Source of the DNA: a virus
DNA length: 64,000 bases
Virus record (IMG/VR): IMGVR_UViG_3300009105_000002
Coordinates: 31,320-95,319 of that record
Reading direction: 5' to 3' (one strand)
A model generated the notes under the pieces. The model had not been told where the DNA came from, did no database searches, and saw only the letters and a list, made by a program, of their open reading frames with translations. Positions 11,421 through 63,900 of the stretch are shown in pieces; position 1 is the stretch's first letter, and the number at the start of each line of letters is the position of its first letter. A program made the position numbers and the translations under genes.

Positions 11421-11448
11421 AGTTAACATAAGATACATTATAGGCGGT
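11421..11448 (-). other. dif-like XerC/XerD site with canonical XerD arm; left att of prophage 2
   Basis: Minus strand ACCGCCTATAA-TGTATC-TTATGTTAACT versus E. coli dif GGTGCGCATAA-TGTATA-TTATGTTAAAT (XerD arm 10/11, spacer 5/6). Confidence 0.85.
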
Positions 11449-33125: not shown

Positions 33126-33380
33126 CTATTCGTCTTCTGGTTGATCCAATTCGCGCATATAGTTCTCTATATGCACCGGCACTTTTTCTATGCCATCTAT
33201 TTCACCTTGCATAAGAACTGCGTCGTGCAAGGAACCTTTACGGAGTCGGTTTGACCTCTCCACTTTTTTTCTCTGACATACTCTCTCCAAGAGCCGGAGA
33301 CATACCGCCCAACCTGGACTCTTGCGTAGATCCTGCAGATCCTTCAACTCCCGCCGTTTCTCCTCCTGACTTATTTCCAC
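33126..33380 (-). CDS. Small post-portal protein
   Basis: SPGW...QG.IDG pattern; overlaps the portal 3' end; RBS AAAGGAGG. Confidence 0.55.
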   Translation of the reverse strand: MEISQEEKRRELKDLQDLRKSPGWAVCLRLLERVCQRKKVERSNRLRKGSLHDAVLMQGEIDGIEKVPVHIENYMRELDQPEDE

Positions 33381-35466
33381 CTTCTCCTCCTTTTATCATT
33401 AACATCCTTTGTATCATTGCTTGCATCATCATCTGGTGCTCGCCCATATGATTTTGGTTATACAGTAACACCTGTTCCCTTACTCCATCCGGGAGAAATG
33501 CTATTGTAGGCGACGACATCAACTCATTGTGAACCTGTAAATGCCAAATATGGTTCTCTGTAATGAGTGCCCTTACTTTATTAAACTCCCCTTGGATCAT
33601 TAACGTATTCTCGTCCTCGGGCGCATCAGTATCCTTTTCCTCCGGAGCCGGCCCTAAAAATCTTTCAGCTTCATCTCTTGAACTATGAGAAGCAACGAGT
33701 TTAAATGTCGCCTTGTAAATCTTAACAGGATCCGTTCCTACAATCGGGTTCGCTAAGAGTTGTCCATACAAAAATCCGGCTATCTGCCGTTCCATATCTT
33801 TTGATCCACCCGAGGAGTCTTCTAATAAAAAAGCGTCAAATTCTCCGGAAATACCTTCGTCAGTAAGTTCGCCGGCTTGGAATATCGGATCACCTTTCTC
33901 TCCAAGTATTCTTGTCTCAAACCCCGGCGGGATATTAAGTTGTATCTTATCCAATATCTGCGTTAATATCCTTGAAGCACCCGCTCGTAATCTTTCTCCG
34001 GGTCTCTGAAAACGTTCCTGCGCGTTCGAGAGAATAGCGTTGGTTCTGGTGGCAGTTCCAGAACCACCCACTATTTCTGACTCCTTGCCCATGACATAAC
34101 TCGAGGCAGCGGTTAATCTCTCTACAAACTCCAATACAAGCTTAATAGCATTTATAAGGCGTTCTACAGGAATATCAAAGTCGGGGAAATACACGTTCTT
34201 TTGAGGATCTGAAACCGGTATAAGCTTTCGAGGGGATAGGTATATAGTTGAGGGATTTAAGTCGCCGGAAGGATCGTAAAAGCCCGGCCTCATCATTGAA
34301 TAAGTATTACCGTCAGTCATTTGGTTAAAGCACGCGTCAATTTCTCTCGCCAACTCCTCAACCATTTCCAAAGTGCCTAATCCGTCTAAGCCGTCAACCT
34401 CATTTAATCTCGGCAGGAATTTTGTCCACTCTATCGGCCTCATTGCTCTCTTAGAAAGGTTTTTTACCTCCACTCCTCCAAGATAAATTTTATTATCCAT
34501 ATCGATTATGACGCGGATATCTTCTGCAAATCCGTCGCCGTCAAAATCGTATTTCATATATTCAACAAGGCAATTGATAGGATAAACCCTCACCTTCACC
34601 TCTTTAAGCATTTTGACTTCTTCTTCGGTAGCCGACGCGTCAGCCGAGATCACGACCTTTTCTTCCACTTTCGGACGTAGCAAGGTTTGGACATTTACCA
34701 ACTGCTCCTCGATTTCCATTTGCTCAAGGTCGCCGAATTTATAATCGTCCTTTACGACAACAGGATCATTGTAGATATTCTTCTGCCCTTTTTGGAGAAA
34801 GACATTTTCTTTAGGTATGATATTGCACTTTGTTTTTTCGATAAGTTTTAACACCTTGTCTTGAAAAGAGTCTAATTCTTCGCCATTAGGGCCTCTGATA
34901 ACAGTGGTTTCTGATTCGCCTATATCCTTATACTCGACATCCCAAATTACCTCAACAAGAGAGTCGCCGTAACCGGCCGTTACCATTACCCAATTATCAA
35001 AAAACTCCCTCATTTTTGTCCATACCCTGATCCACCAATCCATAAACTTCGTTATGCGCTCGACTTTCTCAAAGTCATTTTTCTCGCCCGGACGCCATCG
35101 GCATAGGTCTTCATTGTAAACCGCCGGAAAAAGTTTTGAGCATAGCATTTCGAGGATTGCCATAGCAATGCGCATACTTCTATTGGAACAGTTTTTCCAC
35201 GGCTTATCCTTCGGCTTTCTTTTCCCAAAATAAAGATTGTTAAGCGATTCCATATGTTGCTCAAAATGCAGCACGTCGCCCTTAGAATTAGTCCGGTATT
35301 CTTTTGTATCGCGATTTTCCTTGCCGGATCGGTAATCCTGCAAAACCATTTCAACGAGAGTTTTTTCCTGCGCCTCGGATATCTGAATCTGCATGCCGGG
35401 CTTTGCTACTTGGGGCGTAGGCTCCATCTCCTCGTTTTGAATTCCTTCCTTGACCTCTCGTGCCAT
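33238..35466 (-). CDS. Portal protein
   Basis: 742 aa after the terminase genes; DFDGDG.AED, G.GTAT, C-terminal H..H Gln/Met-rich barrel. Confidence 0.8.
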   Translation of the reverse strand: MAREVKEGIQNEEMEPTPQVAKPGMQIQISEAQEKTLVEMVLQDYRSGKENRDTKEYRTNSKGDVLHFEQHMESLNNLYFGKRKPKDKPWKNCSNRSMRIAMAILEMLCSKLFPAVYNEDLCRWRPGEKNDFEKVERITKFMDWWIRVWTKMREFFDNWVMVTAGYGDSLVEVIWDVEYKDIGESETTVIRGPNGEELDSFQDKVLKLIEKTKCNIIPKENVFLQKGQKNIYNDPVVVKDDYKFGDLEQMEIEEQLVNVQTLLRPKVEEKVVISADASATEEEVKMLKEVKVRVYPINCLVEYMKYDFDGDGFAEDIRVIIDMDNKIYLGGVEVKNLSKRAMRPIEWTKFLPRLNEVDGLDGLGTLEMVEELAREIDACFNQMTDGNTYSMMRPGFYDPSGDLNPSTIYLSPRKLIPVSDPQKNVYFPDFDIPVERLINAIKLVLEFVERLTAASSYVMGKESEIVGGSGTATRTNAILSNAQERFQRPGERLRAGASRILTQILDKIQLNIPPGFETRILGEKGDPIFQAGELTDEGISGEFDAFLLEDSSGGSKDMERQIAGFLYGQLLANPIVGTDPVKIYKATFKLVASHSSRDEAERFLGPAPEEKDTDAPEDENTLMIQGEFNKVRALITENHIWHLQVHNELMSSPTIAFLPDGVREQVLLYNQNHMGEHQMMMQAMIQRMLMIKGGEGGNKSGGETAGVEGSAGSTQESRLGGMSPALGESMSEKKSGEVKPTP

Positions 35467-35515: not shown

Positions 35516-36013
35516 CTATTCTCCTGTCGTGTCAATTACTTCCGCCCTTGGTTTCACTCCCAGTTTATCAAGTTTATTAAGAAGGTTTTGTTTTTCTTGT
35601 TCAAGCTGATCATCCGACATGTTGTTGATTTGAGCAAAGACCACATTGCCGATAGCGGTTGATTTTCCGCCCTCAACTTCTTCCCTGACAGAATCGAGGC
35701 AAGCTTTAGCTGCGCTAATTTTGTTCTGTGCAATTGCTTTCTGATAGAGTTCGTCATATCTCCTTAGCCTCACTCTTTTTTGCGCGATTGCTTCTTCCAT
35801 AGTAGTAGCCAAATATTGTGCGCGCATATCCGTTACAATCACATTCCATCGCGTTCCCTTTTTCAAAAAAATTTCATTTATGTATTGAGGCGTGGTATCA
35901 ATGTTATATGTTTCCTTCACATACCTCACGGCTTCGGCAGGGCTCATATATTGAGCAACTTCCCTTGCTATGTCTAGCTTCTTCTTGCGGGAAAGATTTC
36001 TCTTGTTAGACAA
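35516..36013 (-). CDS. Terminase small subunit (DUF2280-like)
   Basis: N-terminal HTH; IA.K.VRL, A...L...REEVEG. Confidence 0.6.
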   Translation of the reverse strand: MSNKRNLSRKKKLDIAREVAQYMSPAEAVRYVKETYNIDTTPQYINEIFLKKGTRWNVIVTDMRAQYLATTMEEAIAQKRVRLRRYDELYQKAIAQNKISAAKACLDSVREEVEGGKSTAIGNVVFAQINNMSDDQLEQEKQNLLNKLDKLGVKPRAEVIDTTGE

Positions 36014-37466
36014 CTGCGCCCTCCAAATCTGGCTCCAACACTTTTCGGGCCTTGTAATAAGGCTTATCTATGACTAAATACCTCACGGTATCTGCACCGT
36101 GGGCGTCTTTTTCTTTCGCCTGTTCGTTGGGGTTTTTATCTTGGCTTGAAGATCCCCTGTCTTCTTTATACTGGTAATTCCGCATACTCCGGATAGTTTC
36201 CGGGCAACGCCTCTTGTGGAAGTATATCTTTGGTTTATTGGTAATGTCTATTGTTCGGGAAGGATCAAACCGGAGGCGTTCTTTTACGAGCAAGTGCCCT
36301 GTTTCTCTATCATCGTTTCCGAGGAACGTGGAACAGCCATAAAGCGACAACTGTTTCTGAACGGTTATATTTACGCCGACCTTGTGAGGTTTTGCGCCAA
36401 AATTAGGATCAAGGAGCCGTTTCCGCATATTGTATCCCCGGAAATGTTCCCTCGCCTTGATTGCGGCCGCGAGTTCCATAAGATCCCCGTGTATCAGGAG
36501 TTCATCATCTACAAACAAATCCCCTATCTTATCCACGAATGCCCAAATAACATGGTGCTTGAGCCGGTCGTGCGGATCTGCCACGCACCATACCGGCGCG
36601 TCCTCAAAGCCCTTATCGGTATATTCCCACTCCTGACAATGCACGCTTGAGAAATTCTTATAAATCATGCCCCTCAAGTGGAAGAACTTGCCGTGAATGC
36701 GGCTTTCTATGTCGTCTGGATCCAACGAGAGCAGGAACTCCTCAATGGCTTCATCTGTAAGGATCTGATTGCCCTTGATATCACGCTTATTGTCATAAAT
36801 CGACGCTGTAACCATATCAATACGCTTGCCGTCCGCCTTATCGCACAACTTTTCCTTCATCCACGGCTCGATCAATGGCGTAAAAGTCAGCACTACCCGG
36901 CCCATGCGGTCGACAAGACCTCTCTGGATTGCCTTGTATTTCGCCTGATCCTGCGGTTCGTCCCCCCAGTAAAAATCCCAATCTGCTGACTCAAAGGCCA
37001 TGGTATCCATTTCATTGGTCAGGATATCAACCGTGCCCCCGTCCTTCATAATGATTTTCTGTAAGTAACCTTGAGGGGTTCGTTTCCACTTCAAAACCTT
37101 ATCTTTGGGTAGATAAGTCATTATCTTTTTCTCTATTACTCTTTCAATCACCGGGAAATTCGTAGCGACAACTACTGCCTTGATCGGGCCGTAGAACCTG
37201 CGATCCCGCGGATACCACTCCGGATATTCCCTTGTCATATGCCAAGCAAGCTCAACTGCCCCGAACACGGTCTTGCCGGAACGATTGCCCGCGCAGAATA
37301 TCTTAATCCGGGCCCTTGACCGGAACAGGCAGAACTGCTTCTCGTTCGGCATGTAATACTTAATACCGTTCTCTTTCTGCCGGCGGTCAAGCTCGCGCGT
37401 AATGGCGTCAAGCTTCACAAGTGCTTGCCGTAACTCAACTTGTGGCATTTCCAGAGTATTTTCCAT
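36006..37466 (-). CDS. Terminase large subunit
   Basis: Walker A AGNRSGKT, Walker B WGDE, TFTP coupling motif, RNase H-like domain ADPH...DP...H..D..RY. Confidence 0.9.
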   Translation of the reverse strand: MENTLEMPQVELRQALVKLDAITRELDRRQKENGIKYYMPNEKQFCLFRSRARIKIFCAGNRSGKTVFGAVELAWHMTREYPEWYPRDRRFYGPIKAVVVATNFPVIERVIEKKIMTYLPKDKVLKWKRTPQGYLQKIIMKDGGTVDILTNEMDTMAFESADWDFYWGDEPQDQAKYKAIQRGLVDRMGRVVLTFTPLIEPWMKEKLCDKADGKRIDMVTASIYDNKRDIKGNQILTDEAIEEFLLSLDPDDIESRIHGKFFHLRGMIYKNFSSVHCQEWEYTDKGFEDAPVWCVADPHDRLKHHVIWAFVDKIGDLFVDDELLIHGDLMELAAAIKAREHFRGYNMRKRLLDPNFGAKPHKVGVNITVQKQLSLYGCSTFLGNDDRETGHLLVKERLRFDPSRTIDITNKPKIYFHKRRCPETIRSMRNYQYKEDRGSSSQDKNPNEQAKEKDAHGADTVRYLVIDKPYYKARKVLEPDLEGAVV

Positions 37467-37468
37467 AC

Positions 37469-37897
37469 CTATCCTACGTATGACGGTGGTATAATCTTAA
37501 AGCACCTTGCGCAATCTCCGCAATAGCCCTTGTATTCAGGGGGGCCCGGCAACTGCAGGCAATTCTTTGTGAGACATTTAGGGGGAGCGGCCTTCTTCTT
37601 CTTTGGTTCGGCGGCAACAGTTACCGTGGTGGTAGTGGCCGCAGTGGTTGTTTCGGGCTCGGTAATTATTTTAACATCCATTTCCGGCTCTTTTCCCTTC
37701 TTCTCCTTCTTGGCTCCTCGCCTCAGTATAGACATCTTGGCCTCCTTTTTCTTCTTCTCCTTTTTGGTGTAAGTCGTTACGATTATATCACTTCTGCCAT
37801 CGCCATCTAAATCTACCCTATGGCGTTTCCGGTTGCGTGGGGGGAGTTTCTTCTTGGGGGGTTTCTTCGCTACCTTCTTTTTCGGTTTCTTCTTCAT
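37469..37897 (-). CDS. Lys-rich protein with a Thr tract and C-terminal Cys motif
   Basis: RBS AAGGAGG; internal RBS/ATG at MSILRR suggests a second start. Confidence 0.5.
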   Translation of the reverse strand: MKKKPKKKVAKKPPKKKLPPRNRKRHRVDLDGDGRSDIIVTTYTKKEKKKKEAKMSILRRGAKKEKKGKEPEMDVKIITEPETTTAATTTTVTVAAEPKKKKAAPPKCLTKNCLQLPGPPEYKGYCGDCARCFKIIPPSYVG

Positions 37898-37909
37898 TCG
37901 GGCCTCCTT

Positions 37910-38227
37910 TTAGGTTTTTAAGTAAACCCAACCAGTGCAAGACGTTACGACATTTGCTGATACACCGCTTAAAATACTCTTTATCGGCCAGTAGTTATAC
38001 GCATCTTTACCAAGATCAAGAGTGGATGAAGCGGGTTGGACATTGTGGAATATCGACCTCGCGGATCCGGACGAAGCGTTCGCGGTAAGCTGCAGCTCTG
38101 CCAACACCGCGGTAGAAATACTATACATCCCAATGCCTTCGATATTTATTGCCTTCCCGGCGTTCAACACAAACGGCCCGGAAGTCAACATATACATACC
38201 ACCTACTTTAATCGGTTCCTCAGCCAT
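37910..38227 (-). CDS. Small beta-sandwich virion-type protein
   Basis: RBS GAGGAGG; late operon. Confidence 0.5.
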   Translation of the reverse strand: MAEEPIKVGGMYMLTSGPFVLNAGKAINIEGIGMYSISTAVLAELQLTANASSGSARSIFHNVQPASSTLDLGKDAYNYWPIKSILSGVSANVVTSCTGWVYLKT

Positions 38228-38399
38228 TATTTCCTCCTCTTTCTGGTTTCACAATTCCGTTTAGTTTTCGTCTCCCGCACAAACGCGCGGTCTATAACCG
38301 CTATGGCGGCCTGCATCTCACTCCGCGCCGCTTTCAAATGCGCACCCGCCAATTCCAAGTCCTCCAATATCCTGCGGGTAAACTTTATCTTCTTCATTT

Positions 38400-38618
38400 T
38401 TATCCTTTACGCAATCTCCACTGATGTTTTGGATCTGGAACATAAACCAAACTCTCAGGGATATCTCTGCCTATCTTTGTTTGGGGATTCACCCATGCAA
38501 CCACGAGCCAACCGCCAAAAATCTTAAGTCTCGCGCAACCGGCGAATCGATCATCACATATTTCTTCCCACTTCCTTGGATATTTCTTCATCTTCTTCAT
38601 AACCCAACCATACCACAT
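38400..38618 (-). CDS. Hypothetical phage protein
   Basis: R.KIFGGWLV...YVPDP.H.W motif. Confidence 0.55.
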   Translation of the reverse strand: MWYGWVMKKMKKYPRKWEEICDDRFAGCARLKIFGGWLVVAWVNPQTKIGRDIPESLVYVPDPKHQWRLRKG

Positions 38619-38793
38619 CTTTTTTTAACAGCGTCGATACACAGGGGGGGGGAGGGGGGCCCCACACAAGCAGAACTTATTAAAGAAGTAAAAAGAACTT
38701 TATATACACATATACGTTAAGGCTGACCCATTTATTCACGAAGTGCTTCGGTATTAAATCCAACAGGGTGTATGCCCTCCGGCGTTCTCTCTT

Positions 38794-38821
38794 GGGATAT
38801 ATAATATTTGTTATGTTAACT
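38794..38821 (+). other. Internal dif-like site
   Basis: GGGATATATAA-TATTTG-TTATGTTAACT; XerD arm identical to that at 11421-11431. Confidence 0.7.
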
Positions 38822-39080
38822 ACGATCACCGCATATGGTAGTTGATAACCCTCCTCTCCACAACGCAAAACATACCACAATATCTTGTATGTTTTTTCAC
38901 TAAAAACAGCGATCCTTTGGCTTTTATAATTTCTCATCATACAATTTCGCAAACCCCTCCCCCCTCCCTTTTTCCACAAATCCACAACTCAAAAACCCCT
39001 GTAAGTATTTACACCACAAAACAAAAATGGCGACAACTGTCGCCAAACAATATCTTTTTAAAGAAAGATATATAAAAGGT

Positions 39081-39108
39081 TTTTTTTAAAAAAAACGACA
39101 GCTATATA
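39081..39108 (+). repeat. 28-bp inverted repeat, left copy
   Basis: T7A8CGACAGCTATATA is the reverse complement of 60021-60048. Confidence 0.9.
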
Positions 39109-39430: not shown

Positions 39431-39459
39431 TTGACAAATAAAGGAGTTGAGTATATACT
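39431..39459 (+). promoter_or_regulatory. Sigma70 promoter TTGACA-17-TATACT with TTGAGTA boxes
   Basis: TTGACA 39431-39436, TATACT 39454-39459; ATG at the expected +1. Confidence 0.75.
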
Positions 39460-60020: not shown

Positions 60021-60048
60021 TATATAGCTGTCGTTTTTTTTAAAAAAA
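60021..60048 (-). repeat. 28-bp inverted repeat, right copy
   Basis: Reverse complement of 39081-39108; ends 6 nt before an ATG at 60014. Confidence 0.9.
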
Positions 60049-60107
60049 GAGTTATTTACATAACTATTTATTTAAATACAAAACCCTTTAAACAGGTTTA
60101 ATACACT

Positions 60108-60494
60108 TTAAACATCTTTAAAGAGTTTGAGGATTTTGTGCTTAAATCTACGACATTTGTCGGTATTTAGCATTACATCCTTATCTGTAAGCCGGCAGAG
60201 TTTAAACCCCCTTCTTTTCATAAGACGCTCTCTCTTTCCTTCATGTTCCCTCCAGCCCTTATTTCTGTTTGCATGTGAAGATCCGTCAATTTCAATGGCG
60301 ATTTTATGTTTAAGTATGCAGAAATCTATTAAAATAATAAAGGTCGAGGAATAAAAGAGAGGGTATTGGAATATGTGCTTGATTTTGTGTTTCTTTAGGA
60401 AAGTTCGGAACTTTTTTTCGGAGAAGGTAGCTTTCCGCCGGTTTTGCTTTATGTATTTTTGGCAAGTTTTTCTTATCGTTTTACGAAAGTCCAT
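60108..60494 (-). CDS. DUF559/Vsr-like endonuclease
   Basis: T.SE, FQ, IDF, IEIDG..H, G....R. Confidence 0.8.
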   Translation of the reverse strand: MDFRKTIRKTCQKYIKQNRRKATFSEKKFRTFLKKHKIKHIFQYPLFYSSTFIILIDFCILKHKIAIEIDGSSHANRNKGWREHEGKRERLMKRRGFKLCRLTDKDVMLNTDKCRRFKHKILKLFKDV

Positions 60495-60793
60495 TTCTCA
60501 TAATCCTTTTCAAGGCTCAATTTAAACTTACGAGGCCCTTTCCACTCTATGCGCACCATGCAAGAATGTTCCATTTCAATTAGGATATTTTTAATATACT
60601 CCTCCGAGATTCGCAATGTAGTCGCAAAAGAAGTAACGTTTGAGATAACTTCTTTCCTATTCCAACCATATGTCAGCCGGATAATAAGCAAAGCAACTCT
60701 AAGCCAAGTAGGATTTGTTATGTATTTATAAATAGCTTGTAAAAGCTCATTCGCTATTTTAGTATAGCCGTGTTCGATCTGCGGACTTGCCAT
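60473..60793 (-). CDS. Lambda O-like replication protein, N-terminal wHTH only
   Basis: MASPQ.E.GYT.IANELL...RLTYGWN.K...KDYE.W. Confidence 0.8.
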   Translation of the reverse strand: MASPQIEHGYTKIANELLQAIYKYITNPTWLRVALLIIRLTYGWNRKEVISNVTSFATTLRISEEYIKNILIEMEHSCMVRIEWKGPRKFKLSLEKDYEKWTFVKR

Positions 60794-63872: not shown

Positions 63873-63900
63873 GTATCTGTCAAGATACATTATAGGCGCT
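63873..63900 (-). other. dif-like site with degenerate XerD arm; right att of prophage 2
   Basis: Minus strand AGCGCCTATAA-TGTATC-TTGACAGATAC; same spacer and near-identical XerC arm as 11421-11448. Confidence 0.8.

What the first reader, a model, noticed from the sequence alone, without database searches (positions are those of the whole stretch)
38644..38968. Third dif-like site inside the phage, with converging KOPS-like motifs
Seen: GGGATATATAA-TATTTG-TTATGTTAACT at 38794-38821 has a perfect XerD arm, a different spacer, and the opposite orientation to the att sites. GGGGAGGG lies on + at 38649-38656 and on - at 38955-38962, both pointing at the site. Known: KOPS (GGGNAGGG in E. coli) guide FtsK to dif, and non-matching spacers block recombination between sites. 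Inference: a dedicated dimer-resolution site for the episomal form, insulated from att, or a landing pad for other IMEXs. Caveat: G-runs match KOPS easily and the host's KOPS is unknown.
Basis: partly seen in the sequence, partly recalled or inferred. Interest (0 to 1): 0.75.

Follow-up and report, generated by a model that had tools for sequence, protein, structure and literature searches.

The report
Phage-borne Xer site beside packaging genes
An integrase-less tailed prophage sitting in its host's chromosome-untangling site (dif) keeps a second, complete dif look-alike next to its DNA-packaging genes, and so do most sampled relatives; its middle bases do not match the host site, so the phage probably uses the host XerC/XerD enzymes on its own DNA rather than to integrate.

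Summary
GGGATATATAA-TATTTG-TTATGTTAACT lies at 38794-38821 (+), inverted relative to the two att sites. Its XerD arm is identical to the host dif arm.

The site is conserved. The closest relative has a dif-like site at the homologous position. In 80 metagenome relatives, 29 high-scoring sites lie within 1.6 kb upstream of the terminase gene and none in the other 342 kb.

The arms follow Omnitrophota dif arms. The 6-bp centre does not: 33 different centres occur among 38 sites, and none is the host TGTATC or TATATC. Host dif centres are nearly uniform across 401 genomes. Phage genes lie on both sides of the site wherever the far side could be identified, so it is not a prophage junction.

Best reading: a Xer site that recombines only with copies of itself, for multimer resolution or circularisation. 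This is unproven.

The KOPS reading is not supported. The two G-runs are real and unique in the contig, but GGGNAGGG shows no extra polarity around Omnitrophota dif sites. The proximal run keeps its orientation to the packaging operon, not to the site.

Earlier notes of this scan report similar sites beside packaging genes in other integrase-less tailed phages.

The parts
38794..38821 (+). dif-like XerC/XerD-type site: XerC-like arm 38794-38804 (GGGATATATAA), central region 38805-38810 (TATTTG), XerD arm 38811-38821 (TTATGTTAACT)
   Evidence: A homologous site sits in the closest relative. The site recurs across the family upstream of TerL.
38744..38792 (-). Conserved block next to the XerC-side of the site. 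It contains the family motif CCYDTTRGATT (38757-38767, read on the - strand). Candidate late promoter/activator site or packaging signal.
   Evidence: 86% identical to relative L003 over 50 nt, against about 72% in coding DNA. The motif lies between the site and TerL, in fixed orientation to TerL, in many relatives.
38644..38659 (+). Proximal G-run (G9-A-G6); C-rich on the packaging-operon strand, 26 nt upstream of the first packaging-operon ORF
   Evidence: Runs at the same relative place in L031, L045, L058, L068, L094.
38954..38968 (-). Distal G-run (GGGAGGGGGGAGGGG on the - strand)
   Evidence: Also present in L031 and L080.
39028..39045 (-). Terminator-like hairpin with a T-tail. It closes leftward transcription before the site region.
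   Evidence: weak MicA-like hairpin hit below threshold
39431..39459 (+). Strong sigma-70-like promoter (TTGACA-17-TATACT) for the divergent rightward genes (RadC-like JAB protein, cell-wall hydrolase)
36006..38618 (-). Start of the packaging operon: four small ORFs, then the large terminase (36006-37466)
11421..11448 (-). Complete host-type dif (left att site of this prophage), at the GC-skew switch
63873..63900 (-). Right att site: host XerC arm plus spacer TGTATC, followed by a degenerate XerD arm

Best explanation
The 28-mer is a genuine XerC/XerD-type site that this phage family keeps in the non-coding gap between its divergent early genes and its packaging operon. Its arms copy the host's dif arms, so host XerD, and more weakly XerC, should bind it (inferred). 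Its 6-bp centre is unlike host dif and unlike the phage's own attP. Because Xer strand exchange needs matching centres, the site can only recombine productively with another copy of itself (inferred from established Xer biochemistry). Such copies exist in three situations: a circular dimer or multimer made during theta replication or by the phage RecT/exonuclease; two sister chromosomes carrying the prophage; or the two ends of a terminally redundant virion DNA. The most likely job is therefore to convert phage DNA to unit circles with borrowed host enzymes, either by multimer resolution (as cer or psi do for plasmids) or by circularisation after injection (as loxP/Cre does for P1). It is not the integration site. 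Shown here: presence of the site, conservation, position, host-like arms, free centre, and internal location. Inferred: binding, recombination, and the biological use.
For: The exact core occurs twice in the window against 0.02 expected. The closest relative (TerL 78% identical) has ATCGCCTATAA-TACAGG-TATTGTTAACT at the aligned position, with a better XerC arm. In 80 metagenome loci, 29 sites scoring at least 14/17 lie within 1600 nt upstream of TerL (66 kb searched) and 0 lie in the remaining 342 kb. Of 42 loci with at least 700 nt of upstream sequence, 25 have such a site, and 31 do at the looser cut-off of 13/17. In the profile of 38 distinct sites, arm positions that were not used for scoring still match the host: position 1 is A in 30/38 and position 5 is C in 33/38. 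Central positions 3-5 carry about 0.2 bits. There are 33 different spacers, and none is TGTATC or TATATC. Host dif sites in 301 and 401 Omnitrophota genomes have arms ..TCC[TG]ATAA / TTATGT[TAC]AA and centres almost always T[AG]TA[TC][CGA]. In the one case where the host dif is known (this window), the phage integrated through a different site that does carry the host centre. Phage genes lie on both sides of the site in relatives. There is no integrase in the contig. The phage has an O-like initiator, RecT and an exonuclease, so circular replication and recombination are expected. One complete relative carries a Xer-like tyrosine recombinase 2.6 kb from its degenerate copy of the site.
Against: Nothing here shows binding or recombination. 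No ParA-type partition gene was found in the window's contig or in three further family genomes (G002 and G006 complete, G003 about half), so a stable plasmid prophage is not indicated. Lytic growth by concatemer packaging does not need dimer resolution. No XafT (DUF3653) homologue was found, and FtsK dependence is unknown. The XerC-like arm in this window is weak: 5/11 to the host arm, with only the inner TATAA kept. The neighbouring conserved motif sits on the XerC side in some relatives and the XerD side in others, so a cer/psi-style accessory architecture is not conserved. Two complete relatives, G002 and G006, have no site or only a degenerate one. A site that only binds XerCD, without recombining, would leave the same sequence signature.
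Confidence: 0.45

Rival explanations
1. XerCD-binding site without recombination. Bound host XerCD acts as a regulator or roadblock in the control region just upstream of the presumed late/packaging promoter element, or stops FtsK translocation inside the prophage that lies next to dif.
For: The site lies 15-130 nt from the conserved motif CCYDTTRGATT that precedes the packaging operon. It works in either orientation (20 '+', 18 '-'). Arms are conserved while the centre is free, which is all that binding needs. No σ70-type leftward promoter was detected between 39028 and 38619, so a special control element is plausible.
Against: The outer central positions are still conserved (T 35/38, A 28/38, A 25/38 and never T), and the spacer length is always 6, as expected for catalysis. 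One relative pairs the site with its own Xer-like recombinase. No precedent for this use is known to me.
Confidence: 0.2
2. Alternative or ancestral attP. The family normally integrates at a host dif through this site by a one-sided (CTX/VGJ-like) strand exchange that tolerates a mismatched centre. The att pair seen in this window is a second, newer route.
For: The family has no integrase. Complete relatives lack a TGTATC-type attP. Most spacers begin TA, as in the common host centre TATATC. Three phage spacers (TATATA, TACATA, GGTATC) do occur among host dif sites. A few Omnitrophota have unusual chromosomal dif centres such as TAAACG, TCAGTA and TCAATA.
Against: In the only case with a known host dif, the site does not match it and was not used. 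35 of 38 spacers have no counterpart among several hundred host genomes, whose centres are nearly uniform. The third spacer position, needed for XerC-side pairing, is free. No relative shows host DNA next to the site. No TerL relative was found in 185,579 species genomes.
Confidence: 0.1
3. Module junction. Together with attP, which is inverted relative to it, the site divides the circular genome into a structural half and an early/accessory half. Xer recombination between phages that share a centre swaps these halves, as pdif modules move between Acinetobacter plasmids.
For: The site sits exactly where conserved structural genes meet highly variable early genes. attP and the site are in opposite orientation, 27.3 and 25.1 kb apart on the circle. 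L095 and L108 share a 24-nt identical stretch, namely the site including its spacer, in otherwise unalignable DNA and in opposite orientation. In relatives the replication module lies next to this site; here it lies next to attP.
Against: Only one such pair was seen. Mosaic borders at the early/late junction are common in phages without any site. Different spacers in most members would block exchange.
Confidence: 0.1
4. Not a Xer site: a binding site for a phage protein (small terminase, repressor or late activator) that resembles dif by chance or by convergence.
For: The position beside the packaging genes is where pac/cos and late control elements lie. The XerC-like arm plus the first spacer base reads TATAAT, a -10 hexamer.
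Against: An 11/11 match to the host-specific XerD arm recurs in at least 8 relatives whose flanks are unalignable. Arm variants in phages (TCCTATAA/TCCGATAA; TTATGTAAA, TTATGTCAA) mirror arm variants of host dif sites. The 11-6-11 geometry is kept.
Confidence: 0.1

Closest known systems
Plasmid multimer-resolution sites cer (ColE1) and psi (pSC101), used by host XerC/XerD
   Same: A Xer core site on a mobile replicon that has no recombinase of its own. It has a well-kept XerD arm, a looser XerC arm, and a centre that differs from chromosomal dif, so it recombines only with its own copies.
   Different: It is carried by a 52-kb tailed phage that is also integrated at dif. No conserved accessory sequence lies on a fixed side of the core. 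No PepA/ArgR/ArcA-type sites were identified. Recombination is untested.
loxP/Cre of phage P1
   Same: A site-specific recombination site in a tailed phage, used on the phage's own DNA for circularisation of terminally redundant DNA and resolution of plasmid dimers. My recollection that loxP lies near the packaging start is from memory, not checked here.
   Different: No phage recombinase here; the host Xer enzymes would do the work. Only relative G006 has a Xer-like recombinase nearby. Terminal redundancy covering the site is not shown.
IMEX attachment sites (CTXphi, VGJphi, TLCphi of Vibrio cholerae; PMC4246890, PMC6744903, PMC9226527)
   Same: dif mimicry by an integrase-less phage. The same prophage does own a TLC-like attP (host XerC arm plus host centre, degenerate XerD arm) that was used for integration.
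   Different: The site studied here is not at a junction. Its centre does not match host dif, and its XerD arm is intact. No XafT homologue was found.
pdif modules of Acinetobacter plasmids (PMC11705084, PMC12907356)
   Same: Several Xer sites of alternating orientation lie on one mobile replicon, delimiting gene blocks.
   Different: Movement of a block has not been shown here. The two phage sites have different centres.
Chromosomal dif with KOPS/FtsK
   Same: The same 28-bp architecture and the same XerD arm. G-rich runs on both sides point toward the site.
   Different: Not at a chromosome terminus. The centre is not host-like. GGGNAGGG shows no dif-centred polarity beyond base skew in Omnitrophota, and none across the phage.

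Membership tests
XerC/XerD core recombination site | Two 11-bp arms around a 6-8 bp centre, with the inner dyad TATAA / TTATG | tested here: met
   The geometry is kept in 38 relatives.
XerC/XerD core recombination site | XerD arm like that of the host's dif | tested here: met
   11/11 to the dif in the window and to Omnitrophota dif sites
XerC/XerD core recombination site | XerC arm like that of the host's dif | tested here: inconclusive
   Only 5/11 in the window (inner TATAA). It is 10/11 in the closest relative. The family consensus A..TCCTATAA equals the common host arm TCC[TG]ATAA.
XerC/XerD core recombination site | Bound and cut by XerC and XerD | not testable with these tools
   Needs a gel shift and a recombination assay.
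Chromosomal dif | Single site at the GC-skew switch, with the phylum's centre T[AG]TA[TC][CGA] | tested here: not met
   The site lies inside a prophage, 27 kb from the skew switch. Its centre is TATTTG, against the host repertoire.
IMEX attP | Centre homologous to host dif; split into hybrid sites at prophage-host junctions | tested here: not met
   The centre matches 3/6. The site is intact with phage DNA on both sides, here and in relatives. 0 of 38 spacers are TGTATC or TATATC.
cer/psi-type plasmid resolution site | About 180 bp of accessory sequence on the XerC side that imposes resolution selectivity | tested here: inconclusive
   A conserved block adjoins the XerC side here and in L003. 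In relatives with the opposite site orientation, the conserved motif lies on the XerD side.
KOPS / FtsK-orienting polar sequences | Strand polarity that switches at dif, beyond base skew | tested here: not met
   In 264 kb of Omnitrophota terminus arms, GGGNAGGG is 19 toward and 10 away, against GGGG at 837:367. In the phage, the four motifs between dif and the site point away from the site.
pdif-type module | A gene block bounded by oppositely oriented Xer sites and found in different replicon contexts | tested here: inconclusive
   Opposite orientation of attP and the site is met. Block mobility rests on one suggestive pair, L095/L108.
P1 loxP-like circularisation/resolution site | Site near the packaging start and inside the terminal redundancy; dedicated recombinase | tested here: inconclusive
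   Position beside the packaging operon is met. An own recombinase is absent, except in G006. Virion ends could not be determined.

The most novel reading that the evidence does not exclude
Integrase-less tailed phages commonly carry a private Xer site next to their packaging genes. With it they let host XerC/XerD circularise, resolve or reshuffle phage genomes: a host-powered equivalent of P1 Cre/lox that also marks the seam at which the early and structural halves are exchanged between phages.
Probability: 0.2. Interest if true: 0.8.

Novelty: new variant of a known kind. Interest (0 to 1): 0.62.

Why it matters
Host XerC/XerD are known to serve plasmids (cer, psi), small integrative elements (IMEX) and pdif modules. 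A conserved, host-insulated Xer site inside the genomes of a whole family of about 50-kb tailed phages would add large double-stranded DNA phages to the clients of this housekeeping system, for a purpose other than integration. This prophage also carries a separate dif-type attP, so one genome would use the same host enzymes for two insulated reactions. That makes it a natural system for asking how central-region identity partitions Xer reactions. It also gives a simple sequence marker for linking uncultured phages to hosts, because the arms copy the host's dif arms.

Tried and rejected
1. A viral-collection scan with the conserved 16-mer next to the site gave only one true relative; the other nine hits were chance matches.

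2. A TerL profile scan of 185,579 species genomes found no relative, so no integrated family member could be studied.

3. I searched for a second site with the same centre in the window and in a 48.6-kb relative. None was found.

4. Public reads: one run held a small share of the sampled words (0.19). Laying it and two sister runs on the region gave only tiny contig fragments, with no joints and no information on ends, dimers or inversions.

5. KOPS derivation from three Omnitrophota contigs with dif: many octamers are 95-100% polar because genes are strongly co-oriented, so the true FtsK motif could not be singled out. GGGNAGGG is not among them.

6. Folding 38636-38976 as RNA: the G-run and C-run pair, but z = -1.29, which is not distinctive. 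Rfam gave only a sub-threshold terminator-like hit.

7. The 101-codon ORF across the site (38680-38985, -) has no family hit. The alignment with L003 has indels that are not multiples of three, so I treat it as non-coding.

8. XafT/DUF3653, ParA and ParB in phage 2: none. The single ParB_N hit lies in the other prophage.

9. Contig ends of relatives do not pile up at the site.

I then computed the same profile by reading the sites from the stored loci by coordinate.

Full report
**Setting.** The window is the last 64 kb of a 95,319-nt IMG/VR contig. A complete host-type dif, ACCGCCTATAA-TGTATC-TTATGTTAACT, lies at 11421-11448 (-), exactly where the GC skew changes sign. A second site at 63873-63900 (-) keeps the XerC arm and the centre TGTATC but has a degenerate XerD arm. 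A mirror-image site (degenerate XerC arm, perfect centre and XerD arm) lies at contig 461-488. Two tailed prophages are therefore stacked on either side of dif. No tyrosine recombinase is encoded anywhere in the contig. The right-hand phage spans 11449-63872 (52.4 kb). Its packaging and structural genes run leftward from 38618, with TerL at 36006-37466 and an SU10-type portal at 33238-35466. A RadC-like gene and a hydrolase gene run rightward from a strong promoter at 39431-39459. An O-like initiator, RecT and an exonuclease lie at 60.5-63.5 kb.

**Observation.** The reported 28-mer is present as described. Its XerD arm is identical to that of dif, its centre TATTTG shares 3 of 6 bases with TGTATC, and it lies on the opposite strand. 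The core ATAA-N6-TTATGTTAA is found twice in the window (dif and this site), against 0.02 expected. They belong to the only two strongly G- or C-rich 16-mers in the 95-kb contig. The site lies in an 810-nt non-coding gap, bounded by a leftward terminator at 39028-39045 and the first packaging-operon ORF at 38618.

**Conservation.**
- The closest relative (L003/L031, TerL 78% identical) is syntenic across the region. At the aligned position it has ATCGCCTATAA-TACAGG-TATTGTTAACT: a better XerC arm, a slightly weaker XerD arm and yet another centre.
- The adjoining 50 nt are 86% identical, and both G-runs are present there too.
- A TerL profile recovered 80 metagenome loci, mostly from groundwater, with TerL 44-55% identical in the 79 loci other than L031 (the closest relative again, at 78%).
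- Each 28-mer was scored against the XerD arm plus the inner six bases of the XerC arm. Sites scoring at least 14/17 number 29 in the 66 kb that lie up to 1600 nt upstream of TerL, and 0 in the other 342 kb.
- Weaker but recognisable versions (ATGTCCGATAA..., AGGTCTGATAA...) occur in most of the rest.
- Homologues of window genes from the far side of the site, or phage replication genes (DnaB-like, AAA_24, Phg_2220_C), lie beyond the site in relatives. It is therefore an internal feature of the phage genome, not a phage-host junction.

**Sequence profile.**
- Among 38 distinct sites, the arm positions that were not part of the score still agree with host dif: position 1 is A in 30/38 and position 5 is C in 33/38.
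- The centre is always 6 bp. Its first two bases are mostly TA and its last is mostly A. Positions 3-5 are essentially free (about 0.2 bits). There are 33 different centres.
- Orientation relative to TerL is '+' in 20 and '-' in 18. A neighbouring motif, CCYDTTRGATT, always lies between the site and TerL in one orientation.

**Host comparison.**
- Pattern scans of 301 and 401 Omnitrophota genomes show one dif-type hit in most matching genomes, while the reversed-pattern control hits were rare for the longer pattern but about as frequent as the odd-centred hits for the shorter one.
- Host arms are ..TCC[TG]ATAA or ..GCCTATAA on the XerC side and TTATGT[TAC]AA on the XerD side.
- Host centres are nearly uniform. 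In one search, by my hand count, there were about 63 TATATC, 20 TGTATC, 14 TATATG, and a few TGTATA, TGTATG or TATATA. One search gave the same picture.
- Phage arms thus track host arms, including the variants, whereas phage centres do not. None of the 38 is TGTATC or TATATC, and only TATATA, TACATA and GGTATC occur at all among host sites.
- A caveat: a few Omnitrophota have full-armed sites with odd centres (TAAACG, TCAGTA, TCAATA) between convergent housekeeping genes. Host centres are therefore not absolutely fixed.

**Interpretation.** Xer strand exchange requires matching centres. This is established for dif, cer and psi, and is exploited or evaded by IMEX elements (PMC5357621, PMC4246890). 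Host-like arms combined with a private, freely drifting centre are what one expects of a site whose only partner is another copy of itself.

This argues against integration at dif. The window gives the direct case: the host centre is known, the internal site does not match it, and the phage integrated through a different, TLC-like attP that does match.

It fits multimer resolution or circularisation of the phage's own DNA by host enzymes. The fixed position beside the packaging operon recalls P1 loxP near pac (from memory, not checked here). One complete relative (G006) carries a Xer-like recombinase 2.6 kb from its degenerate copy of the site, which hints at recombination rather than mere binding.

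Nothing here shows binding or recombination, however. No partition gene and no XafT homologue were found, and a binding-only role would leave the same sequence signature. I put 0.45 on the self-recombination reading, and about 0.85 on the narrower claim that this is a selected Xer-type site.

**KOPS.** In 264 kb of clean terminus arms from three Omnitrophota contigs, GGGNAGGG points toward dif 19 times and away 10 times. That is no better than GGGG (837:367), while many other octamers are 95-100% polar. Across the phage, the motifs between dif and the site point away from the site.

The G-runs are nevertheless real and family-linked. In 24 loci, 11 of 12 G- or C-rich 14-mers lie within 300 nt of the site, and 9 of 10 point toward it. 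But the proximal run keeps a fixed orientation to the packaging operon, where it is a C-rich leader just before the first ORF, whichever way the site points. It is therefore more likely part of the operon's control or packaging region than an FtsK guide.

**Other readings.** The site and attP are inverted relative to each other and split the circle into a structural half (27.3 kb) and an early/accessory half (25.1 kb). The early side is highly mosaic among relatives. L095 and L108 share only a 24-nt identical stretch, the site with its centre, in opposite orientation. A pdif-like role in module exchange cannot be excluded. The 'landing pad' idea has no support: every sampled site is an intact 28-mer carrying both arms, with nothing inserted in the site.

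**Relation to earlier scan notes (unchecked leads).** Two notes on other genomes report dif-like sites beside packaging genes in integrase-less tailed phages. If they hold, this is a recurring phage feature. A full-text search found no published description of such a site in tailed phages. Plasmid prophages are instead said to carry their own Xer-like recombinases (PMC8026635).

Noticed in passing
window 38757-38767 (- strand) and loci L036-L108: The motif CCYDTTRGATT, often preceded by G/C-rich bases, lies 100-1450 nt upstream of TerL in fixed orientation across the family. It may be the late promoter/activator site or the packaging signal.
   Followed up: partly
L040 2245-3171 (-) = G006 contig 43.2-44.2 kb: One complete 52.8-kb relative encodes a 308-aa Xer-like tyrosine recombinase (best NCBIfam matches XerA/XerC/XerD, below cut-offs), 2.6 kb from its degenerate dif-like site (ATGTCCGATAA-GGTATC-AAGTGTTAACA). 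No other sampled relative has it.
   Followed up: partly
L095 5239-5262 and L108 5331-5354: A 24-nt stretch that is 100% identical (XerC arm, spacer TAATTA, start of the XerD arm) is the only similarity between the upstream regions of two phages whose TerL genes are about 65% identical. It is inverted relative to TerL.
   Followed up: partly
L266 7058-7132 (Omnitrophota genome G211, contig 26): A chromosomal dif (ACTTCCTATAA-TATATC-TTATGTTAACT) has a second, inverted dif-like site (CCCGCCTATAA-TACCCG-TTATGTTAAGA) about 19 nt away. This could be an IMEX junction or a CTX-style paired site.
   Followed up: no
L261 1770, L264 6475, L263 2262: Three Omnitrophota genomes have full-armed dif-type sites with unusual centres (TAAACG, TCAGTA, TCAATA) between convergent housekeeping genes. 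Two of them sit directly after a DUF134 gene. Some lineages have therefore changed their dif centre.
   Followed up: partly
window 39059-39108 and 60021-60070: A 50-nt AT-rich palindromic stretch (T8A8 core) is repeated in inverted orientation at both ends of the 21-kb accessory block, at 80% identity. It may be a shared bidirectional terminator or a module border.
   Followed up: no
window 60108-60793 (-): A short O-like replication initiator N-domain ORF (106 aa) overlaps a DUF559/HNH-type endonuclease ORF (128 aa). The initiator gene may be interrupted or truncated by a homing-endonuclease-like gene.
   Followed up: no
L237-L256 (Omnitrophota contigs with dif): Terminus arms show extreme strand polarity for many octamers (for example GGCAGGAT 22:0 and GAAGGCAG 19:0). 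These are candidates for the phylum's FtsK-orienting motif, but they are confounded by gene co-orientation.
   Followed up: partly
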